From: a virus
Taxonomy: Duplodnaviria > Caudoviricetes
Length of the DNA stretch: 64,000 nucleotides
IMG/VR virus record: IMGVR_UViG_3300024346_000005
Direction: 5' to 3' (one strand)
Shown here: piece by piece, positions 5,482 through 63,765 of the stretch
Layout of the letters: each line of letters begins with the position of its first letter
Numbering within the stretch: the stretch's first letter is position 1
Notes under the pieces: generated by a model
The model's input: only the letters and a program-made list of their open reading frames with translations
Database searches by the model: none
What the model was told of the DNA's origin: nothing
Translations under genes and position numbers: made by a program

Positions 5482-5796
5482 ATGAAATCCTTCAATCAGT
5501 TTATTTCAGAAAGTGTTAATATTGCCGGAAATTTCAACGGCAATCTTTATATGAATGGTTCAGAATCTCAATCAGAACCCGTTGGAGAGTCTTTTACCGC
5601 AGATATAGTTTGGGAAGGTAAAATGTATAGATTAGAAGTTGAAGGCAAGATGTTAAACAAAAATGAACTTGCAGAGCAACTTCAGGGAGAATATCCCGGA
5701 GCAATTGTACATAACATTTACCCTCAAACAACAAATTCTTTAAAAATTAAGAACTCACAAAGATATCAACCCGAAAGACTAACTTCGACTGATTAA
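5482..5796 (+). CDS. Hypothetical protein with capsid-targeting-like leader (MKSFNQFISES)
   Basis: 104-aa ORF tightly coupled to both neighbours. Confidence 0.7.
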   Translation: MKSFNQFISESVNIAGNFNGNLYMNGSESQSEPVGESFTADIVWEGKMYRLEVEGKMLNKNELAEQLQGEYPGAIVHNIYPQTTNSLKIKNSQRYQPERLTSTD

Positions 5797-15043: not shown

Positions 15044-15694
15044 ATGAAACTCATCACAGAAGAAGTCTCACACGTAGAGTTTATTACCGAAAAAGTAGGT
15101 AAAGAAACTAAAACCTTTATTCAAGGAGTTTTCCTTCAGGGAGACATTTGTAACCGTAACGGTAGAATGTATCCGATGGAAACTCTTGCGAAAGAAGTGG
15201 CAAGATATAATGAAGCATTCGTTTGTAAAGGTCGTGCTCTTGGAGAACTCGGACATCCAGATGGTCCTACGGTAAATCTTGACCGTGTTTCTCATAAGAT
15301 TGTTTCCTTAGAACAAAAGGGATGCAATTTTATTGGTAAGGCACAACTTCTTGGAACTCCTATGGGTAAGATTGCCGAATCTCTTATTAAAGAAGGCGTT
15401 TGTCTTGGAGTTTCTTCTCGTGGTGTTGGATCACTCCAAATGACTAATGAAGGTCATAAAATTGTTGGTAAAGACTTTATGCTCGCAACTGCTGCTGATA
15501 TTGTGGCAGATCCTTCTGCTCCCGATGCTTTTGTACAGGGAATATTTGAAGGGAAGGAATGGATTTGGGAAGGAGGAATCCTTCGTGAAAGACTTGCAGA
15601 GCAAACAAAGAAGAGAATTAATACTCTTGTAGATGAAAAAACTCTACAAGAGCATAAAGTTCAATTGTTTCAAGATTTCTTAGGAAATCTATAA
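15044..15694 (+). CDS. gp21: Prohead core protease gp21
   Basis: NRNGRMYP, ALGELGHP, GVSSRGVGSL, DIVADPSAPDA. Confidence 0.95.
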   Translation: MKLITEEVSHVEFITEKVGKETKTFIQGVFLQGDICNRNGRMYPMETLAKEVARYNEAFVCKGRALGELGHPDGPTVNLDRVSHKIVSLEQKGCNFIGKAQLLGTPMGKIAESLIKEGVCLGVSSRGVGSLQMTNEGHKIVGKDFMLATAADIVADPSAPDAFVQGIFEGKEWIWEGGILRERLAEQTKKRINTLVDEKTLQEHKVQLFQDFLGNL

Positions 15695-15734: not shown

Positions 15735-16895
15735 ATGTCCGTTGGTAGAAATTTACAAGAAATGGAAAACGTAGTAACCAAAGGAGCCTCACCTGCCGAA
15801 ACTCCTTCAAAGAGTGCAACTCCTATTTTAACTCCAGGTCAAACTGGTTCTTGGGAAGATTTGGGTGGTCCAACTCCAGAAAATTATCGTCCCGATGACG
15901 ATTCTTCAAAACTCAAGGATCCTGCCACAACTCTTGCACAAGTTAGAGATGTTGTAAATGCTAAGGCATCTGCAGCAGATCCTATGAAAGGTGTTAAGGA
16001 AGAGACTGAAGAAGATGAAGATCTTGTCGATGAAGAAGATGAAGAAGAAGATGTAGTATCTGAAGAGTCTCACGAAGACGAAGAAGAAGATCCAAAACCA
16101 AAGAAAGGTAAAAAGTCTTCTAAAGAAGAAGAAGATGAAGACGAAGATGAAATGAAGGAAGACTTTGACATCGAAGAAGATGTTAATGCTCTCCTTGCTG
16201 GTGAGGATCTCTCGGAAGAGTTCCAAGAAAAGGCAAGAACAATTTTTGAGGCAGCAATCCGTTCTAAGGTTGTTGAAATCAAAGAAGAACTTCAAGAAAC
16301 TTATGAAAATGCACTCATTGAAGAAATTGAAGTAATCAAAGAAGGTCTTGTTGATCGTGTCGATGCATACCTTGAGTATGTTGCTGATGAGTGGGTTTCT
16401 GAAAACGCACTTGCAGTTGAGCACGGTCTCAAAACTGAAATGACCGAATCATTCCTCCAAGGAATGAGAGGTCTTTTTGAAGATCATTATGTTTCAATCC
16501 CTGAAGATAGATATGATGTAATCGAGAGTATGGTAGATAAACTTGATGAAATGGAAGGAAAACTCAACGAGCAAATTCAAAGAAATGTTGCTCTGAACAG
16601 AAGATTAGCAGAGTCGGTTGCCGATGTAATTTTTGCAGATGTCGCTGAGGGTCTTGCACTTTCTCAGAAGGACAAACTCGCTTCTCTTGCCGAAAATGTT
16701 GAGTTTGATAGTGAAGCAAACTATCGTGAGAAACTGGTAACTCTGAGGGAATCTTATTTCCCAACATATACTAGTGCTCAAAGAGATGACTCTGAAACCT
16801 TATCCGAAAGTACTGATGTCCAGTCCCAACAACCACAAGTTGATGGAAGAATGGCAACATACCTTCAGACTCTGGGAAGAGTCGCCAAACTGTGA
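15735..16895 (+). CDS. gp22: Prohead core scaffold protein gp22
   Basis: Acidic coiled coil, LSEEFQEKARTIFEAA, YLEYVADEW; sits between gp21 and gp23. Confidence 0.92.
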   Translation: MSVGRNLQEMENVVTKGASPAETPSKSATPILTPGQTGSWEDLGGPTPENYRPDDDSSKLKDPATTLAQVRDVVNAKASAADPMKGVKEETEEDEDLVDEEDEEEDVVSEESHEDEEEDPKPKKGKKSSKEEEDEDEDEMKEDFDIEEDVNALLAGEDLSEEFQEKARTIFEAAIRSKVVEIKEELQETYENALIEEIEVIKEGLVDRVDAYLEYVADEWVSENALAVEHGLKTEMTESFLQGMRGLFEDHYVSIPEDRYDVIESMVDKLDEMEGKLNEQIQRNVALNRRLAESVADVIFADVAEGLALSQKDKLASLAENVEFDSEANYREKLVTLRESYFPTYTSAQRDDSETLSESTDVQSQQPQVDGRMATYLQTLGRVAKL

Positions 16896-18328: not shown

Positions 18329-18354
18329 GGTTATAAACCTAATGTGATTACTAG

Positions 18355-18362
18355 TATAAATA
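18355..18362 (+). promoter_or_regulatory. Late promoter abutting the gp23 terminator, upstream of an endonuclease gene
   Basis: Exact TATAAATA. Confidence 0.65.
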
Positions 18363-18388
18363 AGAGAGTCTTACGACTCTCTTTTTTT
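18363..18388 (+). terminator. Rho-independent terminator after gp23
   Basis: AGAGAGTC-ttac-GACTCTCT followed by a T run. Confidence 0.8.
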
Positions 18389-19099
18389 ATGCAACATTTT
18401 ATATACAAGACCACACATATTTCTGGAAAATATTATATCGGAAGGCACTCAACTAAAAATATAAATGATGGATATTTGGGCAGTGGAAGATGGGTGAAAT
18501 CAATAAAAGAAAAATCAAATCTTTCGAGAGAAATACTTGAATATTGTAATAATGATAAAGAACTAATAGAAAAAGAAACTCTTTTAATAGAACAAAATAT
18601 ATCAAATTCTTTATGTATGAACTGGAACGATAAAGGTGTCGGTTGGTCGTCAAGGTTTAATCCATCCAAACTAAATCCAAGTAGATTTGCTGGAGATAAA
18701 AATCCAATGAAAAATGAAGAAGTTAGAAATAAAGTAAGTGAGTCTGTAAAAAAAGGATATGCCGAAGGAAGAATTCATCCCCTACTAGGCAAAAAACATA
18801 CTGAAGAATCTAAAGAAAAAAATAGACAAAAGCATCTTGGTAAAAAACTTTCACCAGAAACTATTGAAAAAATAAGAAATGCCAATATAGGAAAAGAACA
18901 AACAGACTACCAAAAGCAAAAAGCAAGAGAGGCAAATGAAAAAACTTGGAAAATAATCACACCAGAGGGAGAAGAAGTCATTATAACAAATCTACGCCAA
19001 TATTCCTTAGAAAGAGGTTTAGACCCAGGAAATATGATGCATGTGGCAAGAGGAAGGCAAAAGCAACATAAGGGTTATAAAGTATCTAAAGTAACTTAA
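18389..19099 (+). CDS. Free-standing GIY-YIG (Seg-like) homing endonuclease with NUMOD3-like repeats
   Basis: FIYKTT..GKYYIGRHST..DGYLGSG; GKKHTEESKEK / GKKLSPETIEKIR repeats; start placed at the ATG after the terminator. Confidence 0.8.
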   Translation: MQHFIYKTTHISGKYYIGRHSTKNINDGYLGSGRWVKSIKEKSNLSREILEYCNNDKELIEKETLLIEQNISNSLCMNWNDKGVGWSSRFNPSKLNPSRFAGDKNPMKNEEVRNKVSESVKKGYAEGRIHPLLGKKHTEESKEKNRQKHLGKKLSPETIEKIRNANIGKEQTDYQKQKAREANEKTWKIITPEGEEVIITNLRQYSLERGLDPGNMMHVARGRQKQHKGYKVSKVT

Positions 19100-20189: not shown

Positions 20190-20747
20190 ATGGCATATAT
20201 TTACAAAATAACCAATTTAAAAAATAATAAAATTTACATTGGTTTTACAATAAATGAAATTGAAGTAAGGTTAAGGAATCATATAAGAGCATCAAGACAA
20301 AATAAAGAAAGACATACATATCTCCATTCGGCAATTAGAAAGTATGGTGAAAAATTTTTTATAGTTGAAGAAATAGAGAGTGGTGATGATAAAAAACTTT
20401 TAAATGAAAGAGAAAAATATTGGATTGATTATTTTAAACCAGATTATAACCTAACAAAAGGTGGAGATGGTTGTTTAGGTTATAAGCATTTGGAGGGGAC
20501 AAAGTTAAAAATAACTGGGTGCCCAAAAGGAGCAAAACAAACTTTGAGTGAAGAACAAAGAGATATTCTTTCCAATAGAGCAAAAATGATGAATGAGAAG
20601 AAGGGAAAGGGATATAAATTAAATGTTAGTGAAGAAGAGAGACAAAGAAGGAGAGAAAATATGATTAGAATTAATAAAGAAAGAAAAGGTCAAAATACAA
20701 CTTTAAATAAAAAAAGAGATGATAAGGGTCGGTTTTTATCGAAATAA
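20190..20747 (+). CDS. Free-standing GIY-YIG homing endonuclease
   Basis: AYIYKITNLKNNKIYIGFT, EREKYWI, YNLTKGGDG; inserted between uvsY and uvsW. Confidence 0.85.
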   Translation: MAYIYKITNLKNNKIYIGFTINEIEVRLRNHIRASRQNKERHTYLHSAIRKYGEKFFIVEEIESGDDKKLLNEREKYWIDYFKPDYNLTKGGDGCLGYKHLEGTKLKITGCPKGAKQTLSEEQRDILSNRAKMMNEKKGKGYKLNVSEEERQRRRENMIRINKERKGQNTTLNKKRDDKGRFLSK

Positions 20748-23323: not shown

Positions 23324-24046
23324 ATGAATATTCTTTATAAAATAACATATCTTCCTCATCTAAAAAATCAAACTCCCCCTTATTATTATGTTGGATCGAA
23401 ATACAACTATGGTAAAAAATATTTCGGATCTCCGTCATCCAAACAAAAAGATTGGTATAGTGGAGACCTTACTATTTGTAAATGGTGGAAAGAAAAAATA
23501 AAAAATAATATAGATGATTTTTATTTTGAAATAATATCAGAATATGGTGAAATATCTCCTAAGCAATTAGTTGAGGAGGAGAAAAAAATTCATATGGAAT
23601 TAGATGTTAAAAATAGTAAAGAATATTTTAATAAATCTGTAGCAACTTCTGGGTGGGTATCTGTTCCAAGAACAGATAATACAAAGAAAAAAATAAGTGA
23701 GATTACCAAAAATTATTGGGATCAAAATAGTCAAAAAGCATTAGAAAGAAGGAAAGAATTGAGTGAAAGAAATAAAAAAATAAAATCTAAAGAATTAAAA
23801 GAAAAATGGAAAAATCCAACTGATAAAATGTTGGATAATTATGAAAGATTTGTCAATATGGCAAAAAACCAAAAAAGGGGGAAGGATAAATCTAAAAGAA
23901 AACAAAGGACCACCCAAAAAGTTTTTTGTTGTGGTATAATATACGAAGATGCCGTTGAAGCAAGTAAAGTCGTCGGCATAAATCCAGTCAATATTCGTCG
24001 CAGATGTAGATTAGAACAATATACCGATTGGTATTATTTGGAATAA
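23324..24046 (+). CDS. Putative divergent GIY-YIG homing endonuclease with C-terminal NUMOD1/HTH-like domain
   Basis: ILYKITY...YYYVGSK, KYFGS; C-term KVFCCGIIYEDAVEASKVVGINPVNIRRRC; inserted between gp55 and gp47. Confidence 0.65.
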   Translation: MNILYKITYLPHLKNQTPPYYYVGSKYNYGKKYFGSPSSKQKDWYSGDLTICKWWKEKIKNNIDDFYFEIISEYGEISPKQLVEEEKKIHMELDVKNSKEYFNKSVATSGWVSVPRTDNTKKKISEITKNYWDQNSQKALERRKELSERNKKIKSKELKEKWKNPTDKMLDNYERFVNMAKNQKRGKDKSKRKQRTTQKVFCCGIIYEDAVEASKVVGINPVNIRRRCRLEQYTDWYYLE

Positions 24047-27075: not shown

Positions 27076-27213
27076 ATGCAAGTACCTAACAGGCATCACC
27101 ACTCACGCAAGGAGCAGAAGCGGAAACTCAAACCGCAGGCACTCCGACAGGCAAAGGCACGACTCAAAGCCTTTAAGAAAAAGCACTCTTCGGAGTGTTT
27201 TTTTTATAAATAA
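27076..27213 (+). CDS. Small, highly basic protein (45 aa); absent from the ORF track
   Basis: Manually translated MQVPNRHHHSRKEQKRKLKPQALRQAKARLKAFKKKHSSECFFYK; AAGGA upstream. Confidence 0.55.
   Translation: MQVPNRHHHSRKEQKRKLKPQALRQAKARLKAFKKKHSSECFFYK
27181..27204 (+). terminator. UUCG-loop terminator
   Basis: AAGCACTC-ttcg-GAGTGTTT plus T run. Confidence 0.8.
27205..27212 (+). promoter_or_regulatory. Late promoter fused to the terminator T run
   Basis: Exact TATAAATA. Confidence 0.72.
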
Positions 27214-27231: not shown

Positions 27232-27870
27232 ATGAGAGAACAAGAAGTTAGAAATCTTTGGGAAGCATATCTGGAAGTTTGTGAAAATCAGCAACTTGAT
27301 GAAGTTTCTGATGAACTTGTAGGTAGAGCTGTAAATAAACGTATTGCTGCTACTGGTGCCGCAAATGATACGGAAATGAAAGACCGCACTCCTGAAAATA
27401 TGAGAGCTTCTGTGAGAGCTGGCGAAAAGGAAGCAAGTATGAAGACTGCTGCCGCTAAAAGAAGGAAAAGAATGAATAAAGAAGAAGTTGACCTCTTTGA
27501 CACCATTCTTGAGCACCTAGTTGCCGAAGGTTATGCCGATACAAATGAAGCAGCACTTGCTATTATGGCAAATATGAGTGAAGAGTGGATTGGTAGTATT
27601 GTTGAGGCAGTAGACCCAGACTATACGGGTCCATCTCAAGATCCGTTATCTAGAGCAAGCAGAGCAATTGGAAATGCTGTAAAGTTTGCTACGGGACAAC
27701 AAGCTGCGGAAGTAAGAGCAAAACAAAAAGGTGTTCCCGGAAATGTTGTTGTTAAGCAGTCTGGTCCCTTTTCGACAAAAAATGTTCCAACTAAGGGATC
27801 TTTTATTTCTGATACTGAAATGAGAAGGAGAGGTCAAAGTACACAACCAATGGGACCCATAGGAAAATAA
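27232..27870 (+). CDS. EAY/EGY-module paralog family member 1 (212 aa)
   Basis: N-term NLWEAY; module DLFDTILEHLVAEGYADTNEAALAIMANMSEEWIGSIVE at 27490-27606. Confidence 0.75.
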   Translation: MREQEVRNLWEAYLEVCENQQLDEVSDELVGRAVNKRIAATGAANDTEMKDRTPENMRASVRAGEKEASMKTAAAKRRKRMNKEEVDLFDTILEHLVAEGYADTNEAALAIMANMSEEWIGSIVEAVDPDYTGPSQDPLSRASRAIGNAVKFATGQQAAEVRAKQKGVPGNVVVKQSGPFSTKNVPTKGSFISDTEMRRRGQSTQPMGPIGK

Positions 27871-30157: not shown

Positions 30158-30715
30158 ATGAAGACCTTTCAGGAATTTATGGTAGAATGCTATTCTATTC
30201 AAGAGACTTCTCTTACTCGTGTAATGAGTAAGTCCGAAAAGGGTGGGATGGCAATTCTTTCTGGGCAGAGGGGTGACAAATCAAAATCAGAAAATAAGGA
30301 AAGGTCTGCAAGAACTGAAAGAAGAATTAGAGGTGCCGGTCTTCCGGGTCCAACAAAAGTATCTGGAAGATATACGGAAAACCCAGGAACTCCAGATGAG
30401 AAAAAAGTGGGTGAAAAATCTCACGTAGTTTCTTCTGGTAAAATGGGTAAGAAGAGGTTTAAGAAAACCATAGAGAAACTTGGAACTGAAAGAGGACTCA
30501 AACAAAAGCGTAATGCTCCTGAAGGTTCATCTAAAGACGACCAAGATTCCGTATTGATTCAACGTAAAGGTGGGGGTGAAGCATCACTCAAAGGAACATC
30601 CAAAACATCTTGGCCTGGTAAAGGTAAGAATGTTGGAGTCGGAAAAATGAAACCAGGAAGAACTGGTGAGTTTGATACAAAAGTCAAAAACAAAACATTT
30701 ACTTATGAAAACTAA
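30158..30715 (+). CDS. Basic hypothetical protein with capsid-targeting-like leader (MKTFQEFMVE)
   Basis: 185 aa; late promoter variant CTAAATA at 30131-30137. Confidence 0.72.
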   Translation: MKTFQEFMVECYSIQETSLTRVMSKSEKGGMAILSGQRGDKSKSENKERSARTERRIRGAGLPGPTKVSGRYTENPGTPDEKKVGEKSHVVSSGKMGKKRFKKTIEKLGTERGLKQKRNAPEGSSKDDQDSVLIQRKGGGEASLKGTSKTSWPGKGKNVGVGKMKPGRTGEFDTKVKNKTFTYEN

Positions 30716-45406: not shown

Positions 45407-45655
45407 ATGAAAGACCTCCAAGCATTCCTTGATAATATTATTGATATTTTTACCACTAAAAAATCATTACCTAAAGATGTAATGAATGATTTTATCAAGT
45501 ATTTTTACTTCACTCTTGATAAGGAAATCAAATCAAATAAGTCGGAAGTATTAAAGAATAAATATATTAAGATTAGAAAAAATGGATTAAACTATATTGT
45601 TGCTAATAAAGAAGCAATAATGGCGAATATTCGTAAGAAAAAATTAAGTAAGTAA
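45407..45655 (+). CDS. Small basic hypothetical protein
   Basis: 82-aa ORF coupled to neighbours. Confidence 0.55.
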   Translation: MKDLQAFLDNIIDIFTTKKSLPKDVMNDFIKYFYFTLDKEIKSNKSEVLKNKYIKIRKNGLNYIVANKEAIMANIRKKKLSK

Positions 45656-46986
45656 TGAAAAGTTTCTTTCAGTTCATATCAGAAGCAACTTCTGCATCAG
45701 ACCAAGCTCAGCGTCTTGGGTTGCAGGGTGACGGGCACGGTGGTTGGTATGATAGAAGAACTAATGAGTTTGTTGCCAAGACCGAAGGTGGAAAGTTAAA
45801 GTTTTATAATAAGCGTCAGAGAGTAGGAAAGGACCCAAATCAAACCCCACACGAAAAGGATGTTCCTTCACCGAGTTATAATGACCCAAATGCTCAACAG
45901 CAACCCCAACCCCAAGCAGAACCCCAACCGGAACCTGCTCCAGAGCAACAACCGGTAGCACAGGAACCACAACAACCTGTAGAAACTCCTCCACCAGTTC
46001 CTAAGACCAAAGGAACTCTTACGATTGCTTTTGGTCGTTTTAATCCTCCTACGGTCGGGCACCAGCAATTAATGGATGTTGCTGCTGCTTCATCTCAGGC
46101 AGATGGTGGAGACTATCTAATCTATCCATCCAGAAGTCAGGATAAGAAAAAGAATCCACTGGACCCTGATACAAAGATTTCATATATGAGACAGATGTTT
46201 CCTGCTCATAGTGAAAGAATTGTGAATGATGCCGCAAATAAGACTATTTTTGATGTTCTTAAAAAGGCACATAATGATGGATATACTAATGTTAGAATCG
46301 TGGGTGGTTCCGACCGTGTAAAGGAGTTTGAGAAATTATCCAATAACTATAATGGTCAATTATATGCCTTTGATGCGATTGAAGTAGTTTCTGCCGGAGA
46401 CCGCGATCCTGATGCCAAAGGTGTTGAGGGAATGTCTGCATCCAGAATGAGACTTGCCGCTGCCGAAGGAGATTTTCGTAAGTTTAGAGAAGGTCTTCCT
46501 CCAGATATGAAGCGTAAATCGGCACAAGAATTATTTGATTCTGTAAGAGCATCTATGGGTATTAATGAGAACTGGAATCTCTGGGAAATTGCCCCTAAGT
46601 TTGATTACCAGACTCTTCGTGAGAATTATGTTTCCGAAAAAATATTCCAAATCGGTCAACTGGTTGAGAATCTGAATACTGGACTTGTTGGAAGAATCAT
46701 TCGTCGTGGAACTAATTATCTGATTTGTGTAACTGAATCTAATATGATGTTTAAGTCTTGGATTAAGGATGTAATGGAAACCAAAAAATATACCGAAGTT
46801 AAAATGGATAGAAAGATGAGAGAACCCGGAAAACCAAATACTTTAGTTGGAACTTCTGGATTCTACAAGTATGTTGCGGATATGACACCAGAGGCACCCG
46901 AAACAAATCTACAATACGGAGCAAAACCCTATCGTGGTTATAAAGTATCTAATATCAGGGAGTTTATAAATAAGTATAGAAAATAG
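45655..46986 (+). CDS. HIGH-family nucleotidyltransferase (cytidylyltransferase-like) with capsid-targeting-like leader
   Basis: FGRFNPPTVGH, GMSASRMR; N-term MKSFFQFISEA; Q/P-rich linker. Confidence 0.8.
   Translation: MKSFFQFISEATSASDQAQRLGLQGDGHGGWYDRRTNEFVAKTEGGKLKFYNKRQRVGKDPNQTPHEKDVPSPSYNDPNAQQQPQPQAEPQPEPAPEQQPVAQEPQQPVETPPPVPKTKGTLTIAFGRFNPPTVGHQQLMDVAAASSQADGGDYLIYPSRSQDKKKNPLDPDTKISYMRQMFPAHSERIVNDAANKTIFDVLKKAHNDGYTNVRIVGGSDRVKEFEKLSNNYNGQLYAFDAIEVVSAGDRDPDAKGVEGMSASRMRLAAAEGDFRKFREGLPPDMKRKSAQELFDSVRASMGINENWNLWEIAPKFDYQTLRENYVSEKIFQIGQLVENLNTGLVGRIIRRGTNYLICVTESNMMFKSWIKDVMETKKYTEVKMDRKMREPGKPNTLVGTSGFYKYVADMTPEAPETNLQYGAKPYRGYKVSNIREFINKYRK
46965..46972 (+). promoter_or_regulatory. 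Late promoter
   Basis: Exact TATAAATA at the end of the upstream CDS. Confidence 0.65.
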
Positions 46987-47006: not shown

Positions 47007-48434
47007 ATGAAAAATCATATTGCCGAAGATCTGCCAGCAAGAAAATTTGCCCCTGCTGCTGCCGATTCTGGTCCTACTGACAAGAACGATAAAAAGGAAA
47101 GTTCTGGAAAGTCTCCAGAGAAAAAGGCAAAGCAGGCAGTGTATGATATTCGTTATAGAGCAAGAAGAGAAGATATTCCACTTCCTCAGGCATTTTCTCA
47201 ATATATGCAAAATAGCAGTATGGGAGGTGAGGAAAGAAAGATGGTCAAGGCAAAACTATTCGGTAAAGAAGGTGGTGGTATGAAGGCAGAAGACTTTAAT
47301 CCTATTTTTAAGGATGCGGCATCTGATAATGTTGCCAAAGCACTTTTTAAAGTTTTTGTGGAAGGAACGGAACAAGAACAGCAATCAATTTCTCTAACTT
47401 ATCTTGAAGAATTAGACAGTCCAGAGCACAGAAAGTATAAGGTAAGAGTTACTGATAAGAATACTAAAAGGTCTTATGTGAGAATGGCAACCCGTGAGAA
47501 AATCAATCAACTTCGTGCCAATCCAAATATTGAATCAGTTGAGATGACCGAATATGGCGAACCTTATGAGGGTGAGAGAAAGAAAGGTTCTCAGACCGCA
47601 AGAGTTGCTGCAGGTAAAGGATTAGACCCCGTAGGTAAAGAAGACGGTGATGTTGATAATGATGGGGATAAAGATAAGTCTGATAAGTATCTAATGAAGA
47701 GGCGTGGTGCGATTGGTAATGCCATCGCAACTCGTAAAGAAGAGTTCATTCACGAAGCAGAAACCGAAGATTCTAACACCCAAACACTTGATTATATAAA
47801 GGGAAAAGTTAAGAATAAAGTAACTATTTCTCCTATTCAGGGTGGAAATGAAAAAGTTAGAATAGTGGCACATAATGAACTTGAAGGTGAATTGATTGCT
47901 GAAACTGGGTACTCAAAGTTTCTTAAAAAGGTTCATTCTCTTCAAGAAAAAGCAGTAAGTCAAAATCAGCAACAACTTGCTGCTATGGCTATTGAATATC
48001 TTGATGGAAATATGCCTGATGCGAGTGACGCTGTAAAACAAATGGCAAAAATGGGAAGAAAAGAACTCAAAAAATTTGCCAAAACCAAGCACAAAGGTCT
48101 TCCAGAAAAAGTAAAGGAAGAAATGGATTGTGGTTCTGATGATAAGAAAAAAAAGAATGGTGAAGAGGAAGACCCCCGTTCTTCGAAGACAAAGGATAAC
48201 CTTAGAAGAAATTATTTAAGGGCGATGGGTCTTAAGATGTCTTATGAACCAGAAGGTGAGGTATTGGAGGATTATATGAGAGTAAATTCTGATGGTAGCA
48301 GAGAAAGAGTTGCAGGTGACCCCCCAAAGGCAAAACTAAAAAGAAAACCACTAGGTCATACTCCCGAACAACAAAGGCAAATGAATAAACAACCTAAAAC
48401 AGACTATAGAGCAAGACCTGGAGAATCCGATTAA
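47007..48434 (+). CDS. Multi-module charged protein (475 aa) with DxDNDGD motif and a DUF3008-like module
   Basis: DGDVDNDGDKDKSD; KAVSQNQQQ..KELKKFAKTKHKGLPEKV. Confidence 0.7.
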   Translation: MKNHIAEDLPARKFAPAAADSGPTDKNDKKESSGKSPEKKAKQAVYDIRYRARREDIPLPQAFSQYMQNSSMGGEERKMVKAKLFGKEGGGMKAEDFNPIFKDAASDNVAKALFKVFVEGTEQEQQSISLTYLEELDSPEHRKYKVRVTDKNTKRSYVRMATREKINQLRANPNIESVEMTEYGEPYEGERKKGSQTARVAAGKGLDPVGKEDGDVDNDGDKDKSDKYLMKRRGAIGNAIATRKEEFIHEAETEDSNTQTLDYIKGKVKNKVTISPIQGGNEKVRIVAHNELEGELIAETGYSKFLKKVHSLQEKAVSQNQQQLAAMAIEYLDGNMPDASDAVKQMAKMGRKELKKFAKTKHKGLPEKVKEEMDCGSDDKKKKNGEEEDPRSSKTKDNLRRNYLRAMGLKMSYEPEGEVLEDYMRVNSDGSRERVAGDPPKAKLKRKPLGHTPEQQRQMNKQPKTDYRARPGESD

Positions 48435-55273: not shown

Positions 55274-55294
55274 GGCTCTCTTTTTTTATAAATA
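55262..55294 (+). terminator. Terminator fused to a late promoter
   Basis: GAGAGTC/GGCTCTC stem, T run, TATAAATA 55287-55294. Confidence 0.72.
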
Positions 55295-55320: not shown

Positions 55321-56517
55321 ATGTCTAGACTTACTGGTACTGATGCATATGGTTTGATGGAGGCATATCAAGCAGTATATGCTCCTCAAGAACTCACCGA
55401 AGAGCAAGTTTGGGAAGAAGTTGAGAACTGGGTCAATTCACTTCTTGAAGAAGGTTATGACCTGAGTGATTATACCTGGGAGGAGATGTATGAAGAGTAT
55501 TTGGAAGAAATTTATGGAACTAATCTGGGGGGAAATACTAAAACTAAACCTAATAAGTTAGATACTGCTGTAGGTAATGCCATTAAATCTATAACAAGTT
55601 CCGGTGCAGACGCCACACCAAGAACTACAGGTATTTACGGACAACCAACAAGGAAACCTGCATCCCCAACTTTCCAAAATACTGGTGGATTTGGTAGATA
55701 TGCTCCCCCATCCACACAAGTAAAAACTCCTGCTCCTGCCGCTCCTGCCAATAGAACTCCTGGACTTACTCCTGTTCCCATCACTAGAACTCCTGCTCCT
55801 GCCACAAAACCAGCAGCACCAGCACCCGCTGCCGCCAGACCTTCTGGCGGTGCTCCTAGACCTTCTGCCGGTGCTCCCGCTAAAGTATCACCAACACCCA
55901 CAAAACCAGCAGGACCTGCAATGGGTAAACTTGGGGGCACTACCTTTGAGAGAAGGACTCCAACATCTGCCGAATTGAAGGCAGCACAATCGGCAAGAGC
56001 ATCGGGAGCATCTCCAGAGAAAGCACTTCAGGCAGCAAAGTCTGCTGGTGGAGCACTTCAACAAACTGCTGCTAAGGTAATGGAAAAACCACCAGCATTT
56101 AGTCCAACTCCTGCCGCTGCAAAAACAACCCCAACTCCATCCACACCAAAGGCACCTACACTTGGTTCCAAAAAACCCGGCAGTATGGTTTCTCATTTTG
56201 ACCCATTTGATGTAATCAAAGGTCATCTTCTTGATGAAGGTTATGCCGATACTGAAGAATCGGCACTTGCTATTATGGCAAATATGAGTGAAGAGTGGAG
56301 AGAGAGTATTTTAAATGAGGGTGACAACTACGATAAGAATCGCCAAAGAGCAGCGAAAAGAGCAGCAGAAAGAAATGCTGCCAGAGATAGAGGACAAACT
56401 GGAAATGTCCCTGGAGTAGGTTATGTAACACCAAGAAGAGAAAGAGAAACTTATAGAGATGCTGCAGGCACTGAAAGGCACACTTCTGGTGCTAAAATGC
56501 CAAAAAAAGAAGGTTGA
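55321..56517 (+). CDS. EAY/EGY-module paralog family member 2 (398 aa, Pro/Ala/Thr/Lys-rich core)
   Basis: LMEAYQAVYAPQELTEEQVWEEVENW..; module DPFDVIKGHLLDEGY..MSEEWRESILNE at 56200-56319. Confidence 0.78.
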   Translation: MSRLTGTDAYGLMEAYQAVYAPQELTEEQVWEEVENWVNSLLEEGYDLSDYTWEEMYEEYLEEIYGTNLGGNTKTKPNKLDTAVGNAIKSITSSGADATPRTTGIYGQPTRKPASPTFQNTGGFGRYAPPSTQVKTPAPAAPANRTPGLTPVPITRTPAPATKPAAPAPAAARPSGGAPRPSAGAPAKVSPTPTKPAGPAMGKLGGTTFERRTPTSAELKAAQSARASGASPEKALQAAKSAGGALQQTAAKVMEKPPAFSPTPAAAKTTPTPSTPKAPTLGSKKPGSMVSHFDPFDVIKGHLLDEGYADTEESALAIMANMSEEWRESILNEGDNYDKNRQRAAKRAAERNAARDRGQTGNVPGVGYVTPRRERETYRDAAGTERHTSGAKMPKKEG

Positions 56518-56541
56518 TATTATTTTTCAAGTAATCACAAG

Positions 56542-56574
56542 ACCTCTCCACCAGGAGGGGTTTTTTTATAAATA
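56542..56574 (+). terminator. Terminator fused to a late promoter
   Basis: ACCTCTCC-acca-GGAGGGGT, T run, TATAAATA 56567-56574. Confidence 0.72.
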
Positions 56575-56594
56575 ACTAAAAAAGTAAGAAATAA

Positions 56595-57851
56595 ATGAAA
56601 AGTTTTAGAGAGTTTATGATAGAGGCACGAGATGCTGTAAAAGACGCTACATATACTGGAGATGCTGCCGAACAGGAAAGAATAAGACAAAGAGACCTTA
56701 AAAGGGGTTTTGATCCTGATAAGGAAAGAGCAGAGGCTAGAAGAAAAGCTAAAGAAGAATTATTGCGTAATAGGTCTAAGAATACTACAGTTCCTGGTGG
56801 TAACAAAGCAGATTCTCCTTTTGGTGGAAAACCTCAACCACAACCTGAACAACCTTCTGATACGACACAACAAACTAAAACACCTCCTAAATCATCCACT
56901 CCACCTTCACAACCTTCTGATACGACACAACAAACTAAAACACCTCCTAAATCATCCACTCCACCTTCACAACCTTCTGGTGGAAGTGGTGGAAGAGGAA
57001 CATCTTCACCTCCTCCATCAAGTTCAACCACAACCCCATCTTCCGGAAGAAACCCAAATCAGTACAGAGGTCCTGGTACTGGAAGAACTGAAACTCCAAG
57101 AAGCACAACAAATCCAGGAAAAGGTCCCGGTGCATTTCAGACGGTAAAAAATAATGCAAAAAATATTAAAAACTTCAAACCTGGTAGTGTTCCGGGATTG
57201 AAGTCTGGTGGTGTTTTATCCGGTGTAGTTGATACCGCAGTTGAGAAATCTAGGGGTTCTGGGTGGTTAAGATCTCTAGCCAAAGGCACAGCATCAGCAT
57301 TAGGAGCTGTTGGTGGTGGTATTGCCGGTGGTGCTGCAGGATCTCTTGCTGGTCCAGTTGGAACCGCAGTCGGTGGATATGCTGGGCAAGCAGCAGGAGC
57401 CGCTGCTGCAGGTAAGGCATTTGATACTGTTGCCGGAGCAAATGCAGTAGGAAGAAAGCAAATTGCAACTGATAATCGTAAGAGTCAATCTGGTGGTGCA
57501 TTAGTTGGAACCGGCGGAAAGACTTCCTTTGATACTAAAAAGAATACGATTACAAGTGGCGGAAAAACCGCTCAATTGGGTAAGACTTCTGTTGTTACGG
57601 ATCCAAAAACAGGAAAGCAGGGTGTCGGATATCTTGCATATAAAGGTGGAAAAGCAGTTTATAAAAAACCAGATACAAAATCTCTTGCTCAGACATCATC
57701 CAATCCATTAGAAAGAGTTGGTAGGTCTTTATTTGCCGGTGCTTATAAGGCAAATGATGCTAAACTTGCTGCCGCAAAACTTAAGACAGCTGCTACAAGT
57801 GATGCTTCTCGTAACAAACAACTTGGTGTTAAATTGAAGCCGGGAGGTTAA
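56595..57851 (+). CDS. Low-complexity basic protein with capsid-targeting-like leader (MKSFREFMIEA) and a Gly/Ala-rich glycine-zipper segment
   Basis: 418 aa; GALGAVGGGIAGGAAGSLAGPVGTAVGG. Confidence 0.75.
   Translation: MKSFREFMIEARDAVKDATYTGDAAEQERIRQRDLKRGFDPDKERAEARRKAKEELLRNRSKNTTVPGGNKADSPFGGKPQPQPEQPSDTTQQTKTPPKSSTPPSQPSDTTQQTKTPPKSSTPPSQPSGGSGGRGTSSPPPSSSTTTPSSGRNPNQYRGPGTGRTETPRSTTNPGKGPGAFQTVKNNAKNIKNFKPGSVPGLKSGGVLSGVVDTAVEKSRGSGWLRSLAKGTASALGAVGGGIAGGAAGSLAGPVGTAVGGYAGQAAGAAAAGKAFDTVAGANAVGRKQIATDNRKSQSGGALVGTGGKTSFDTKKNTITSGGKTAQLGKTSVVTDPKTGKQGVGYLAYKGGKAVYKKPDTKSLAQTSSNPLERVGRSLFAGAYKANDAKLAAAKLKTAATSDASRNKQLGVKLKPGG
56849..56979 (+). repeat. Exact 60-bp in-frame tandem duplication (about 2.2 copies)
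   Basis: Unit AACCTTCTGATACGACACAACAAACTAAAACACCTCCTAAATCATCCACTCCACCTTCAC, encoding PSDTTQQTKTPPKSSTPPSQ. Confidence 0.95.
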
Positions 57852-57855
57852 TTTT

Positions 57856-57863
57856 TATAAATA
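57856..57863 (+). promoter_or_regulatory. Late promoter
   Basis: Exact TATAAATA. Confidence 0.7.
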
Positions 57864-57885
57864 ATTGAAAATAGTGTTTATTCAT

Positions 57886-58866
57886 ATGTCAAAAGAAATT
57901 GTAGACTTGATGGAGGCATATCAAGCAGTATATGCTCCCCAAGAATTGACAGAAGAGCAAGTATGGGAAGAAGTTGAGAACTGGGTTAATTCACTTTTAG
58001 AAGAAGGTTATGATCTAAGTGATTATACTTGGGAAGAGATGTATGAGAATTATGTAACTGAGAATTGGGCAGCTGTAGGTAAAGCATTATTAGGTTATGG
58101 GGCAAGAGGATTAAATGTAGCAAAGGTTGGAGCAAAACCTGTATTAAAAAATGTAGTAACTAAGGGTGGAAAGTATGGAGCTATTGGTCTTGGTGCATTA
58201 ACAGCAGATGAATTACTTACAAGAGGAGCTGGAAGAACAGCAGTAGGTAAAGGTTTGGAGCAAACAAGAAAACTCGGACCAGCACTTAGAGGAGAACCAG
58301 CAACACCATCTGCAAAAGTAGAACCCTCATCTTCAGAGAAACCTGGAGAATCCACAGGGAAAGTAGTGAACGCTGCCGGTGGTAAAGGAGGAACAGTTAC
58401 TTCCGGAACAAAATATGCAGCAACTCTTGGTGGAAAAAAGGGTAGTGTAACTTATGATGATACTGGTAAAAAGACATTTACTACCGACTCTTATGGATAT
58501 GATGCCTATGACCTTGTGCTTGAGTATCTCCTCTCACAAGGGCACACAGACACCGTAGAAGAGGCAAATTATGTAATGTTGGTAATGGATGCCGAAACTA
58601 TTGGAACTATTGTTGAGACAGCGGCAGACCAATCTGATAAGCAAATTGATAAAGGTGTAAAGACGACTTATAAAGCACAAAATGTTCTTGATAATCAACA
58701 TCAAGGTAGAAGTAAAGGATTGAATAAACTTCCAAGAGGCGAAAGAGAAGAGAAGGCAAAAAGAATGGGAGGTCGTCTAAAAAGTCGTAGAGACGATTTA
58801 TTTGGAGAACGCAATAAGCGTGAAGATTCAAAAAGAGAACAACTGAAGAAAATGTTAGGTTTATAA
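57886..58866 (+). CDS. EAY/EGY-module paralog family member 3 (326 aa)
   Basis: 47-aa N-terminal block identical to member 2; divergent module DAYDLVLEYLLSQGH..TIVE at 58501-58617. Confidence 0.78.
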   Translation: MSKEIVDLMEAYQAVYAPQELTEEQVWEEVENWVNSLLEEGYDLSDYTWEEMYENYVTENWAAVGKALLGYGARGLNVAKVGAKPVLKNVVTKGGKYGAIGLGALTADELLTRGAGRTAVGKGLEQTRKLGPALRGEPATPSAKVEPSSSEKPGESTGKVVNAAGGKGGTVTSGTKYAATLGGKKGSVTYDDTGKKTFTTDSYGYDAYDLVLEYLLSQGHTDTVEEANYVMLVMDAETIGTIVETAADQSDKQIDKGVKTTYKAQNVLDNQHQGRSKGLNKLPRGEREEKAKRMGGRLKSRRDDLFGERNKREDSKREQLKKMLGL

Positions 58867-59574: not shown

Positions 59575-60273
59575 ATGCGAATAGACCTTCATAACTTCTT
59601 TCAGTACTACGACCCAAAGAATCCAAAACACGTTGCGGCAGTAGAGCAACTTGAAGTAGATTTGGTGGGTAAATCTCCAGACCTGATGGAGGATACTGCT
59701 AATTGGGTGAAGATTTTTAGAACAAAACTAGAAGTAGTAATTCCAGGAATTTTGAATGTTCCTTACTATCCTCAAACAGATAATTATAGAGACGCTAATC
59801 GTACTTGTAATAGTTCTTCCTGTGCTATGTGCCTTGAGTATTTTAAACCAGGAACTTTAGTAGGAGCAAAAGGTGATGATGCTTATGTTCAGAAAGTATT
59901 CGCAGTCGGTGATACAACTGACCACTCAGTTCAAACCAAAGTTCTTGCTTCTTACGGAGTTAAGTCTGAGTTTAGGTATAATCTTGGGTTTGCTGACCTT
60001 GATCGTGAGTTGTCTGCTGGGAGACCCGTTGTTATTGGCATACTCCATCGTGGCACTTTATCTTCTCCTACTGGCGGGCATATGCTGTGTGTAATAGGAA
60101 AAAGTCCTGATGGAAAATCTTATATCTGTAATGACCCATATGGGGATTTGAATGATGGATACACAGGAGCAGTCACGAATGGTAAAGGTGCCGTATATAA
60201 GAAGTCAGACCTTCAGTATCGTTGGTTAGAAAATAATAAAGATAAAACTGGTTGGGGAAGGATTTTCAAATGA
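59575..60273 (+). CDS. C39-like cysteine peptidase, probable cell-wall hydrolase
   Basis: VPYYPQTD..CNSSSCAM (Cys), GGHMLCV (His), NDPYG (Asp). Confidence 0.78.
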   Translation: MRIDLHNFFQYYDPKNPKHVAAVEQLEVDLVGKSPDLMEDTANWVKIFRTKLEVVIPGILNVPYYPQTDNYRDANRTCNSSSCAMCLEYFKPGTLVGAKGDDAYVQKVFAVGDTTDHSVQTKVLASYGVKSEFRYNLGFADLDRELSAGRPVVIGILHRGTLSSPTGGHMLCVIGKSPDGKSYICNDPYGDLNDGYTGAVTNGKGAVYKKSDLQYRWLENNKDKTGWGRIFK

Positions 60274-62751: not shown

Positions 62752-62759
62752 TATAAATA
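62752..62759 (+). promoter_or_regulatory. Late promoter
   Basis: Exact TATAAATA. Confidence 0.65.
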
Positions 62760-62762
62760 ATA

Positions 62763-62817
62763 ATGTCAGCAAGAATGTACCGGCGTTGAATGGAAACGAG
62801 GTATGATTTATAAATAA
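62763..62817 (+). pseudogene. Possible deletion scar of an endonuclease gene
   Basis: Mini-ORF MSARMYRR in one frame; ECTGVEWKRGMIYK-stop in another. Confidence 0.3.
62809..62816 (+). promoter_or_regulatory. Late promoter
   Basis: Exact TATAAATA. Confidence 0.7.
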
Positions 62818-62835: not shown

Positions 62836-63765
62836 ATGGACGCACAAGAACTTCGCAATCTTCAAGAAGCATATATGGAAGTTTATGAACTTGATGAAGA
62901 TTGGAAACCTGTAAATGTGCCAAGAGTAAAAACTCGTATGGGAAATCTTGAAGGGAGATTGTCTTCAGTTTCTAATGATAGATTTTCCAGCAATACCCCA
63001 GAATATGCCAGATATCAAAGAACCGCAAATGTTGTCTCACAATCAACTGAAAATCCAAATAAACCTTTCCAAAAACCAACATTTGATCCAGGTGGACTGA
63101 AAATAAAACCAGGAGGCCGAGGTGTCACATTTTCTCCAGAAAGAAATTCACAATGGAAACCATTTTCATCTAGATTACCTACCAAAACTCCTGCTACAGT
63201 AACAAAACCATCTACACCATCATCCACAAAACCAAACCCTCGTAGTATTTCTGGTTCTAGTGCTCCTAGACCGGGAAGAGGATCTACATCAAATTGGATG
63301 ACAGATAGAATGGGTGAATTTACATCTGCGTTAAATAGATTATCAGATCCAAGAAAACCAAATTCAACCACAAAACCACAAGTAAAACCAACCAAAAGTT
63401 CAAGAGGTGGTGGTTCATCAGCACAAGGCGTTGGTTCTCCATCAGGAACTGGTAGATATCAAGTTGGTGGGGCGCAAGGACATGGTATTTCTGGAATAAA
63501 AATGGCCGATAGTTATGACCTCTACGACATCATTCTCTCACACCTTCTTGATGAGGGTTATGCCGAAACACCAGAAGCAGCAGAATCTATTATGGTGAAT
63601 ATGAGTGAAGAGTGGAGAGAGAGTATTTGTGAGGCAGAGATTGAACCCCCAAAAGAAAGAGTTGGTGCTTTGACGAATATTGATATTCCAATGTCCGAAA
63701 GAGAAGCAGCAAGACAAAGAACACTTGCAAAAGCAAAAGCAAAAAGAGAAAAAAACAAAAATTGA
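62836..63765 (+). CDS. EAY/EGY-module paralog family member 4 (309 aa, Pro/Ser/Thr/Lys-rich core)
   Basis: N-term NLQEAY; module DLYDIILSHLLDEGY..MSEEWRESICE at 63517-63633. Confidence 0.78.
   Translation: MDAQELRNLQEAYMEVYELDEDWKPVNVPRVKTRMGNLEGRLSSVSNDRFSSNTPEYARYQRTANVVSQSTENPNKPFQKPTFDPGGLKIKPGGRGVTFSPERNSQWKPFSSRLPTKTPATVTKPSTPSSTKPNPRSISGSSAPRPGRGSTSNWMTDRMGEFTSALNRLSDPRKPNSTTKPQVKPTKSSRGGGSSAQGVGSPSGTGRYQVGGAQGHGISGIKMADSYDLYDIILSHLLDEGYAETPEAAESIMVNMSEEWRESICEAEIEPPKERVGALTNIDIPMSEREAARQRTLAKAKAKREKNKN

What the first reader, a model, noticed from the sequence alone, without database searches (positions are those of the whole stretch)
55321..58866. Dispersed paralog family: conserved acidic EAY/EGY modules around swappable basic low-complexity cores (candidate prohead cargo system)
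Seen: four ORFs (27232-27870, 55321-56517, 57886-58866, 62836-63765) open with L-x-E-A-Y (NLWEAY, GLMEAY, DLMEAY, NLQEAY). Each carries a 39-40-aa module D(L/P/A)(F/Y)D..L.HL..EGY..MSEEW..I.E at 27490, 56200, 58501 (divergent) and 63517. The segments around the modules are unrelated and rich in K/R/P/T/A/S. Each gene has its own TATAAATA. Established: T4 prohead protease gp21 cleaves after (L/I)-x-E, and this phage's gp23 has a matching LYE/S at the expected propeptide position. Inference: the module ends (LME/A, SIVE/A, ILNE/G, TIVE/T, SICE/A) are gp21 sites. The acidic modules would dock the proteins into the scaffold core, and proteolysis would release variable basic peptides that are packaged and injected or that condense DNA. 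This would be an expandable internal-protein system.
Basis: partly seen in the sequence, partly recalled or inferred. Interest (0 to 1): 0.82.

Follow-up and report, generated by a model that had tools for sequence, protein, structure and literature searches.

The report
Charge-balanced late protein family of cyanophages
A T4-like cyanophage carries four late genes of a huge, unnamed, virus-only family in which a fixed acidic leader and a small acidic helical module almost exactly cancel the charge of exchangeable basic segments; these are most likely head-internal proteins trimmed by the head protease, but no experiment has yet shown this.

Summary
Four ORFs (27232, 55321, 57886, 62836) share an N-terminal L-x-E-A-Y leader and a 44-residue acidic "EGY...MSEEW" module. 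The segments between and after them are unrelated and basic. Each gene lies 19-26 nt behind a TATAAATA late promoter.

The family is very large: 4184 clusters at 50% identity, all viral where a taxon is known. Every database calls it hypothetical.

New here:
- Leader and module are almost always found together (109 of 113 leader-bearing proteins), and no enzyme domain is ever attached.
- The leader Glu sits at residue 11 in 79% of members.
- 96% of modules end in [LI]-x-E, the phage T4 gp21 cleavage motif.
- One head is joined to many different tails (45 tail types in 239 proteins).
- Acidic and basic parts cancel. Median net charge is +1, and its spread is half that of random re-pairing.

The same genome has four proteins with a canonical T4 capsid-targeting sequence, one of them lying between two family genes. 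One tail type is homologous to the C-terminus of a protein found by mass spectrometry in S-SM1 virions.

Best reading (about 0.45): charge-masked polycation precursors that are built into the prohead and cut by gp21. Virion presence and cleavage are untested. First readers of this scan noted the same family in three other genomes.

The parts
27205..27212 (+). TATAAATA late-promoter motif of the 27232 gene
27232..27870 (+). Family member 1 (212 aa). Leader with L9-W-E11/A-Y, basic helical core (net +7), acidic module at residues 84-127 (27481-27612, net -11), basic tail (net +7).
55287..55294 (+). TATAAATA late-promoter motif of the 55321 gene
55321..56517 (+). Family member 2 (398 aa). Leader with L12-M-E14/A-Y, a second N-proximal EGY-type acidic block (residues 25-64, net -15), a Pro/Thr/Ala-rich basic core (net +23), the module at residues 291-334 (56191-56322), and a conserved basic tail that matches PHROG 9737.
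56567..56574 (+). TATAAATA late-promoter motif of the 56595 gene
56595..57851 (+). Neighbouring gene, not a family member. It encodes a 418-aa very basic low-complexity protein (net +37) that starts with a canonical T4-type capsid-targeting sequence, MKSFREFMIE/A. This is an internal-protein-like gene wedged between two family genes.
57856..57863 (+). TATAAATA late-promoter motif of the 57886 gene
57886..58866 (+). Family member 3 (326 aa). Leader with L8-M-E10/A-Y. Its first 47 leader and EGY-N residues are identical to member 2 despite 13 synonymous base changes. It has a basic core and a divergent module at residues 203-246 (58492-58623) that ends I-V-E/T, then a basic tail.
62809..62816 (+). 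TATAAATA late-promoter motif of the 62836 gene (a second copy lies at 62752-62759)
62836..63765 (+). Family member 4 (309 aa). Leader with L9-Q-E11/A-Y, a 200-aa basic core (net +22), the module at residues 225-268 (63508-63639, net -12) ending I-C-E/A, and a short basic tail.
15044..15694 (+). gp21-type head maturation protease, the presumed processing enzyme
   Evidence: phrog_207, E 9e-77
15735..16895 (+). gp22 head scaffolding protein. Its N-terminus MSVGRNLQE/ME shares the five residues R-N-L-Q-E with the commonest leader variant.
45655..46986 (+). HIGH-motif nucleotidyltransferase ('cytidylyltransferase') with the canonical CTS MKSFFQFISE/A. Its orthologues are known virion proteins.
   Evidence: PMC3037559 Table S8; PMC10665884 Table 3
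30158..30715 (+). Protein with the canonical CTS MKTFQEFMVE. An earlier follow-up in this scan reads it as a SAM lyase.
5482..5796 (+). 104-aa protein with the canonical CTS MKSFNQFISE/S (PHROG 1742, function unknown)

Best explanation
The four genes encode late proteins built as charge-masked polycation precursors.

Anatomy (shown): A fixed acidic N-terminal leader forms an amphipathic helix. Its L-x-E/A-Y site is usually at residues 9-13. One or more acidic three-helix EGY modules neutralise long basic segments within the same chain.

Proposed mechanism (inferred): The precursors are built into the prohead core together with the scaffold gp22 and the CTS-bearing internal proteins. The gp21 protease then cuts after the [LI]-x-E sites, which lie almost only in the acidic pieces. 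The acidic fragments leave or are degraded, as T4 core fragments are. The basic cores and tails stay behind with the packaged DNA as counter-ions or condensers, and may be ejected with it. Recombination at the conserved leader and module swaps the basic segments.

Shown here: the anatomy, conservation of the motifs, charge balance, cassette swapping, late-promoter context, and homology of one tail type to a virion protein.

Inferred only: entry into the prohead, cleavage, the fate of the fragments, and what the basic pieces do.
For: 1. Position-specific leader. In 253 dereplicated members the Glu is at residue 11 in 200, at 14 in 25 and at 8 in 20. P3 is L/I in 94%, P1' is Ala in 96% and P2' is Tyr in 99%. 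T4 internal-protein propeptides are 10-19 residues long and are cut after L/I-x-E (PMC9026906).

2. Module ends. 346 of 362 modules end in [LI]-x-E, even where an indel shifts the register. The density of [LI]-x-E is 5.2 per 100 aa in leader plus modules, against 0.7 in the rest.

3. Charge balance. In 410 members the leader averages -4, the modules -12 and the rest +18. Median net charge is +1, and the rest is net positive in 99.8%. In 262 dereplicated members r(acidic, basic) = 0.77 (0.46 after removing length). The sd of net charge is 6.0 against 12.5 when parts are re-paired at random, and 0 of 5000 permutations reach the observed value.

4. Late genes. Each has its own TATAAATA. 11 of 14 homologues in five other contigs also have one.

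5. Head-loading machinery in the same genome. There are a gp21 protease, gp22, gp23 with L-Y-E/S, and four canonical CTS proteins. One CTS gene sits between two family genes, and this order is conserved in phage S-SRM01.

6. Links to virion proteomes.
- The tail type of P0147 is homologous to the C-terminus of S-SM1 SSM1_191 (E 7e-8). That protein is T4-GC1454, detected in virions with 10 counts.
- The tail of the 55321 protein recurs in the S-RIM8 orthologue of that protein (73% identity).
- S-CREM2 ORF111, a virion protein, gives a PHROG 3708 match.

7. The scaffold's own N-terminal site R-N-L-Q-E/M equals the commonest leader variant.

8. T4 gp68 has the same layout: an acidic half rich in L/I-x-E followed by a basic half.
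Against: - No proteome exists for any phage that carries a bona fide EGY module. The only one, S-SCSM2R, lists 23 proteins and does not name the module-bearing ORF205.
- The leader does not match the T4 CTS at the positions that matter for targeting. The phage already has a working-looking CTS, so a second address needs a reason.
- Conservation runs on past the supposed cut (A-Y-x-x-V), which T4 CTS proteins do not show.
- [LI]-x-E is easy to find in acidic amphipathic helices, so its conservation could be structural.
- Late promoters also drive non-virion genes here.
- The charge-balance statistics rest on related sequences that were only roughly dereplicated.
Confidence: 0.45

Rival explanations
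1. These are accessory prohead-core (scaffold-like) proteins, functional stand-ins for T4 gp67 and gp68, which cyanophages lack between gp20 and gp21. They help build or size the core and are then wholly degraded and expelled. In this reading the basic parts are not lasting cargo.
For: - T4 gp67 starts M-E-G-L-I-E/A-I. T4 gp68 has an acidic half rich in L/I-x-E followed by a basic half.
- In this window the slot between gp20 and gp21 holds only an unrelated 175-aa ORF.
- The leader resembles the N-terminus of gp22.
- The module looks like a LisH-type self-association motif in some members.
Against: - There are two to four dispersed copies per genome, 45 tail types and very variable lengths. 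This is unlike an essential, stoichiometric core part.
- The basic segments carry almost no [LI]-x-E sites (0.7 per 100 aa), so gp21 would leave them whole.
- No Pfam match to any gp67 or gp68 family was returned.
Confidence: 0.15
2. These are late cytoplasmic proteins that never enter the capsid. They would be self-neutralised, disordered DNA- or RNA-binding proteins that oligomerise through the EGY module, for instance to compact DNA before packaging, organise an assembly zone, or shut down the host nucleoid.
For: - Basic low-complexity segments joined to a small acidic helical association module are typical of nucleic-acid chaperones and condensate formers.
- There is no direct virion evidence for any bona fide member.
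- Late promoters also serve non-virion genes.
- LisH-like matches occur in some members.
Against: - This reading does not explain the fixed distance of L-x-E/A from the start codon.
- It does not explain the [LI]-x-E at 96% of module ends.
- It does not explain the placement among CTS genes.
- It does not explain the shared tails with S-SM1 virion proteins.
Confidence: 0.22
3. These are polymorphic injected anti-defence effectors, like T4 IPI*. The variable basic tails would be the active parts and would evolve in an arms race with host nucleases. The acidic modules might mimic DNA.
For: - The tails are highly polymorphic on a constant head.
- There are several dispersed copies per genome.
- T-even internal-protein genes are likewise variable between related phages, and IPI blocks a host restriction enzyme (PMC9026906).
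Against: - No enzyme or known inhibitor domain was found in 77 long representatives, nor in any precomputed Pfam column.
- The tails are short and basic, and their charge tracks the acidic load. This points to a bulk electrostatic role rather than specific targets.
- This reading also needs the unproven capsid loading.
Confidence: 0.1
4. These are ribosomally made peptide precursors, with a conserved leader and variable core peptides, processed by the nearby C39-like peptidase.
For: - There are weak Pfam hits to Frankia_peptide and to the nitrile-hydratase alpha chain in one member.
- The layout is a conserved leader with a variable end.
- A C39-like gene lies at 59575.
Against: - The Pfam hits are far below the curated cut-offs (28 bits against 48; 20.3 against 27.2).
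- No double-glycine site follows the module.
- The proteins are 150-500 aa long.
- The C39-like protein matches an endolysin PHROG over its full length and sits beside a lysozyme gene.
- No modification enzyme lies nearby.
Confidence: 0.02

Closest known systems
Phage T4 internal proteins IPI, IPII, IPIII (and Alt) with their capsid-targeting sequence
   Same: - They are late, basic, non-essential-looking proteins.
- They have a short N-terminal propeptide that ends in L/I-x-E followed by Ala.
- They vary strongly between related phages.
- They are encoded in a genome with gp21, gp22 and gp23.
- A canonical CTS gene lies inside the locus.
   Different: - The leader sequence differs from MKTYQEFIAE at the targeting positions 4 and 7.
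- The leader is always paired with an internal acidic module.
- Conservation continues past the putative cut.
- The precursors are charge-neutral overall.
- No enzyme is ever attached, whereas the canonical CTS in this genome sits on a nucleotidyltransferase and a putative SAM lyase.
Phage T4 prohead core proteins gp67 and gp68
   Same: They are small acidic helical segments dense in L/I-x-E sites. In gp68 these are joined to a basic C-terminal half. gp67 begins M-E-G-L-I-E/A.
   Different: No detectable sequence homology. The family here has several copies per genome, is dispersed, and is polymorphic in length and tails. gp67 and gp68 are single essential genes that lie next to gp21.
S-SM1 SSM1_191 / Syn9 gp185 / S-RIM8 SXDG_00169 (T4-GC1454; mislabelled 'cytidyltransferase' in RefSeq)
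   Same: These are mosaic late proteins of acidic helical blocks and basic low-complexity stretches. They share the M-Y-R-x-A-G...K-I-V-S-A-I tail (E 7e-8), the Y-D-R-N-R...P-R-R-E-R-E-T-Y block and an I-E-E-G-Y-containing block. The S-SM1 protein was detected in virions.
   Different: They have a different N-terminus (M-N-L-N-D-L-P-D-M-S...). They lack the L-x-E-A-Y leader and the MSEEW module. They lie between mazG and the primase gene rather than after nrdB.
LisH dimerisation motif (Pfam PF08513)
   Same: The first two helices of the module follow the LisH pattern (hydrophobic-x-x-Y/H-L-x-x-E-G-Y-x-x-T). Two family members exceed Pfam's gathering score (27.2 and 24.3 bits against 21.6).
   Different: The four proteins of this window give no LisH hit at E<=1. 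The structure searches with the module model did not return LisH structures. LisH is known mainly from eukaryotes.

Membership tests
T4-type CTS-bearing internal proteins | N-terminal propeptide of about 10-19 residues ending in L/I-x-E, followed by a small residue | tested here: met
   L-x-E/A lies at residues 9-11, 12-14, 8-10 and 9-11 in the four proteins. Family-wide, P1 is at residue 11 in 79%, P3 is L/I in 94% and P1' is Ala in 96%. The T4 rule comes from PMC9026906.
T4-type CTS-bearing internal proteins | CTS consensus M-K-T-Y-Q-E-F-I-A-E, with aromatic or hydrophobic residues at positions 4 and 7 | tested here: not met
   The leaders read M-R-E-Q-E-V-R-N-L-W-E and similar. A regular-expression scan of the whole contig sorts 4 CTS-type and 4 leader-type proteins into separate sets. 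The T4 sequence was verified in the T4 genome.
T4-type CTS-bearing internal proteins | Present in proheads and mature virions | not testable with these tools
   Evidence is indirect only: shared tails with the S-SM1 virion protein T4-GC1454. There is no proteome for S-SRM01, B3, B23 or DSL-LC02. The shallow S-SCSM2R proteome does not name ORF205.
T4-type CTS-bearing internal proteins | Cleaved by the gp21 prohead protease | not testable with these tools
   gp21 is present and the motifs fit, but there are no cleavage data.
T4 prohead core proteins gp67/gp68 | Sequence homology to gp67 or gp68 | tested here: not met
   Pfam returned no match to any gp67 or gp68 family for the four proteins at E<=1 or for 77 representatives. 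Only the layout is alike.
PHROG 3708 / 22522 / 27516 (function unknown) | Significant profile match | tested here: met
   E values are 3e-17, 4e-14, 4e-7 and 1e-7 to phrog_3708. 65 of 77 representatives match it.
LisH motif (PF08513) | Pfam match at or above the gathering score | tested here: not met
   The window's four proteins give no hit. It is met only by two distant multi-module members.
RiPP precursors with NHLP/Nif11-type leader | Leader-family match above cut-off, a double-glycine site, and a nearby maturation enzyme | tested here: not met
   Only sub-threshold hits were found. No G-G follows the module. The C39-like neighbour matches an endolysin family.

The most novel reading that the evidence does not exclude
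Cyanomyoviruses have a second head-loading and processing system beside the T4 CTS. An L-x-E-A-Y leader and a LisH-like acidic module would together act as a cleavable intramolecular counter-ion and as a docking unit that copies the scaffold's own N-terminus. Through them the phage would load a recombining repertoire of polycationic peptides. Once gp21 removes the acidic masks, these peptides would neutralise and organise the packaged genome, much as protamines do. This would be a protein-encoded, evolvable answer to the DNA charge problem in large phage heads.
Probability: 0.25. Interest if true: 0.8.

Novelty: new variant of a known kind. Interest (0 to 1): 0.62.

Why it matters
How large phage heads neutralise and order 200 kb or more of DNA is only partly understood even in T4. 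So is what the many "hypothetical" virion proteins of cyanophages do.

This family is one of the larger unnamed viral protein families: 4184 clusters at 50% identity, with two to four copies per genome. It has a simple, measurable design rule, charge cancellation between fixed acidic and exchangeable basic parts.

If the acidic parts are removed in the prohead, the family would be a natural pro-protamine system. It would also be a second packaging address that could be used to load proteins into cyanophage capsids. It would further explain part of the unassigned virion proteome reported for S-SM1 and S-CREM2.

If the proteins are not in virions, their design still marks an undescribed class of self-neutralised late phage proteins.

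Tried and rejected
- **Pfam on the four proteins:** nothing meaningful, only a sub-threshold Tir_receptor_C hit.
- **PDB sequence search with the module profile:** only a designed protein at E = 1.
- **Foldseek and VIA-align with the whole 27232 model and with the module model:** no significant match. The rows are generic three-helix fragments, best Z 5.3. LisH could therefore not be confirmed by structure.
- **Megablast of the locus against cultured phages:** no match.
- **tblastn against cultured phages:** the module occurs only in B3, B23, S-SRM01, DSL-LC02 and S-SCSM2R. The leader block occurs only in S-SRM01.
- **PHROG 3708 search of Syn9, S-SM1, S-PM2 and S-SCSM1:** no match. The classic cyanophage proteomes therefore cannot test the family directly.
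- **Is the leader a portable tag on other cargo?** No. 109 of 113 leader-bearing proteins also have the module, and the other four look truncated or chimeric.
- **Enzymatic cargo:** none. A single PARP hit at E = 5e-4 among the 77 representatives was not traced to its member and is treated as noise.
- **RiPP-precursor reading:** rejected.
- **Covariation between the leader and the gp22 N-terminus across five contigs:** none seen. gp22 is constant at L-Q-E while the leaders vary at the middle residue. The resemblance stays a clue, not a test.
- **Late promoter as evidence for virion proteins:** weakened, because the motif also precedes three homing endonuclease genes and regA.


Full report
**What the window is**

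The window lies on a 128.5-kb IMG/VR contig that is about 60% complete. It belongs to a T4-like cyanomyovirus. PHROGs identify the portal, the gp21 head maturation protease, the gp22 scaffold and the gp23 major head protein. The nearest cultured relative for this locus is the freshwater Synechococcus phage S-SRM01.

**Checking the observation**

- The four ORFs exist as described.
- Alignment A1 shows two conserved pieces. One is an N-terminal leader with invariant L-x-E-A-Y. The other is a 44-residue module with invariant or near-invariant D, D, L, E-G-Y, T, A, I-M, N-M-S-E-E-W and I. The segments between and after them do not align.
- TATAAATA, the T4 late-promoter core, occurs 17 times, always on the + strand. 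5.65 are expected, and no shuffle in 100 reaches 17.
- One copy ends 19-26 nt before each of the four start codons. This fixes the third gene's start at the ATG at 57886 rather than the TTG at 57865.
- The contig holds exactly these four module copies.

**Size and nature of the family**

- A profile of the module (A2) was scored against 1.84 billion representative proteins. It finds 4184 clusters at E<=0.001 and 2576 at E<=1e-10. Many proteins have two or three modules.
- Full-length searches give 1824 and 1672 hits.
- No source gives a name other than "hypothetical". Atlas neighbours are 100% viral.
- PHROGs 3708, 22522, 27516 and 9737, which cover the pieces, are all "unknown function".
- Five other long IMG/VR contigs carry two to four dispersed copies each. 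11 of their 14 genes have TATAAATA just upstream.
- Among cultured phages the module is found only in B3, B23, S-SRM01, DSL-LC02 and S-SCSM2R.

**Anatomy**

- *Leader.* In 253 dereplicated leader-bearing proteins, the Glu of L-x-E is at residue 11 in 200, at 14 in 25 and at 8 in 20. The residue two before it is L or I in 94%. The next residue is Ala in 96% and the one after that is Tyr in 99%.
- *Fold.* AlphaFold2 places the leader in a helix (residues 3-18 of the 27232 protein). It folds the module into three short helices, with pLDDT 85.6 for the module alone.
- *Known folds.* Structure searches give no significant match. At sequence level the first two helices follow the LisH pattern, and two distant multi-module members pass Pfam's LisH threshold. 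The window's own proteins do not. I therefore call the module LisH-like and no more.
- *Coupling.* Leader and module are coupled. Of 113 proteins found through the leader alone, 109 carry the module, and the other four look truncated or chimeric.
- *No enzymes.* No enzyme domain is attached in 77 long representatives or in any precomputed Pfam column.

**Swapping**

- The same 40-residue head (the one in the 27232 protein) is joined in different metagenomic proteins to at least ten unrelated tails.
- Among 239 sampled proteins the segments after the last module fall into 45 clusters.
- The tails are short (38-110 aa), basic, and conserved within each type.
- The tail of the 55321 protein is itself a conserved module (PHROG 9737). 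It recurs inside a different protein in 142 cultured cyanophage records.
- The first 47 leader and EGY-N residues of the 55321 and 57886 proteins are identical although 13 bases differ, all synonymously. That block is under strong purifying selection in both copies.

**Charge**

- In the four window proteins the leader and modules have pI about 4.1 (net -2 to -15). The cores and tails have pI 10-11.6 (net +5 to +23).
- Across 410 full-length members the leader averages -4, the modules -12 and the remainder +18. The remainder is net positive in 99.8%, and the whole protein has a median net charge of +1.
- In 262 roughly dereplicated members the acidic and basic loads correlate (r = 0.77; 0.46 after removing length). 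The spread of net charge is 6.0, against 12.5 when acidic and basic parts are re-paired at random. None of 5000 permutations reaches the observed value.
- The precursors are thus kept near neutrality however long the basic part is. Members with long basic cores, such as 55321, carry an extra acidic block.
- The sequences are related, so the P value is only indicative.

**Cleavage motifs**

T4 gp21 cuts after L/I-x-E, and T4 internal-protein propeptides are 10-19 residues long (PMC9026906).

- The leader fits this rule.
- 346 of 362 modules end with [LI]-x-E, and the motif is kept even where an indel shifts its register.
- The E-G-Y core is usually preceded by [LIV]-x.
- The motif is 7.4 times denser in the leader and modules than in the basic parts. 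Complete digestion would therefore shred the acidic pieces and spare the basic ones.
It is consistent with the sequences but not proven, since acidic amphipathic helices readily contain such triplets.

**Context that bears on head loading**

- The same contig encodes four proteins with a near-perfect T4 capsid-targeting sequence, at 5482, 30158, 45655 and 56595. The T4 sequence MKTYQEFIAE was verified twice in the T4 genome.
- The 45655 protein is the "cytidylyltransferase". Its orthologues were found in S-SM1 virions (T4-GC190, 25 counts; PMC3037559) and in S-CREM2 virions (ORF154; PMC10665884).
- The 56595 protein is a net +37 low-complexity protein lying between two family genes. The order nrdB, family gene, CTS gene, family gene, C39-like gene is conserved in S-SRM01.
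- The scaffold's own N-terminus reads M-S-V-G-R-N-L-Q-E/M-E. It shares R-N-L-Q-E with the commonest leader variant, in this phage and in four relatives. In T4 the scaffold N-terminus (M-L-K-E-Q-L-I-A-E/A) likewise resembles the CTS. I saw no covariation, so this is a clue only.

**Links to virion proteomes**

No phage with a bona fide member has a useful proteome. The family does, however, shares pieces with proteins that do.

- S-SM1 SSM1_191 (T4-GC1454, 10 peptide counts in virions) ends with a tail homologous to one of this family's tail types (E 7e-8). In SSM1_191 that tail is preceded by an acidic I-E-E-G-Y block.
- The S-RIM8 orthologue of SSM1_191 contains the tail block of the 55321 protein.
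- The neighbours SSM1_192, SSM1_115 and S-CREM2 ORF111, 155 and 160 are all virion-detected. They are of the same general kind, basic low-complexity proteins with short acidic pieces.

**Weighing**

- The head-internal precursor reading explains the fixed leader position, the motif placement, the charge balance, the context and the shared tails. I give it about 0.45.
- A purely cytoplasmic role (0.22) explains the composition but not the leader geometry or the context.
- A gp67/gp68-like core role (0.15) fits the layout, but fits poorly with the copy number and polymorphism.
- An effector role (0.1) fits the polymorphism, but not the absence of any domain or the charge tracking.
- A RiPP reading is rejected.

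**Novelty**

A full-text search for cyanophage together with "capsid targeting sequence" returned one paper, a T4 review. The cyanophage genome and proteome papers I opened for other reasons do not describe this family either. Every database label is "hypothetical".

If the best reading holds, the family is a new variant of the T4 internal/core protein theme, with three features not described for T4: an obligate leader-module pair, overall charge neutrality, and cassette exchange of the basic parts.

First readers of this scan noted the same family in three other genomes. None of those notes had been followed up.

Noticed in passing
window 56595-57851: A 418-aa, net +37, Pro/Thr/Ser/Gly-rich protein starts with a near-perfect T4 capsid-targeting sequence (MKSFREFMIE/A) and has its own late promoter. 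It looks like the cyanophage counterpart of a T4 internal protein. S-SRM01 has a syntenic orthologue (MKSFSQFLEE/S).
   Followed up: partly
window 5482-5796: A 104-aa protein (PHROG 1742, function unknown) also starts with a canonical CTS (MKSFNQFISE/S). It lies directly after the T4-GC119-like gene, between the small and large terminase genes.
   Followed up: no
window 55354-55494 and 57907-58047: 47 identical residues are encoded with 13 base differences in 11 codons, all synonymous. Similarity stops abruptly on both sides. This indicates strong purifying selection on the leader plus EGY-N block in both paralogues.
   Followed up: yes
window 15735-15770 (gp22 N-terminus): The scaffold begins M-S-V-G-R-N-L-Q-E/M-E. 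It shares R-N-L-Q-E with the commonest leader of the family. The same holds in S-SRM01 and in four IMG/VR relatives. T4 gp22 (…L-I-A-E/A) similarly resembles the T4 CTS.
   Followed up: partly
window 47007-48434: This late gene shares the L-D-P-V-G-K-E-D-G-D-x-D-N-D-G-D-K-D block with Syn9 gp185 and S-SM1 SSM1_191 (a virion protein). RefSeq labels those proteins 'cytidyltransferase' although they lack the H-x-G-H nucleotidyltransferase motif. The label appears to have been carried over from the neighbouring true enzyme.
   Followed up: partly
window 4014-5480: This is a homologue of S-SM1 SSM1_115 (T4-GC119, detected in virions) and of S-CREM2 gp160 (also in virions). It contains repeated Cys-bearing motifs of the form D-A-C-Y-x-K-V-K-x-R-Y-x-V-W-P-S-A-Y-A-S-G-A-L-V-K-C-R-K. 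Table S8 of PMC3037559 shows very variable gene lengths between phages (276-2985 nt).
   Followed up: no
window 18355, 20160, 23292 (TATAAATA) before 18344-19099, 20190-20747, 23324-24046: Late-promoter motifs also precede three homing-endonuclease genes, and a motif at 36452 lies upstream of regA. A late promoter therefore does not by itself mark a virion gene in this phage.
   Followed up: partly
window 59575-60273: The C39-like cysteine peptidase matches an endolysin PHROG over its whole length and overlaps the start of a lysozyme gene. It is probably part of the lysis or cell-wall cassette, not a leader peptidase.
   Followed up: partly
L014 8998-10590 (S-SCSM2R ORF205): This 530-aa protein begins directly with the EGY module, without the leader. 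It then strings together blocks also found in Syn9 gp185 and gp186, so it is a further mosaic of the same module pool.
   Followed up: no
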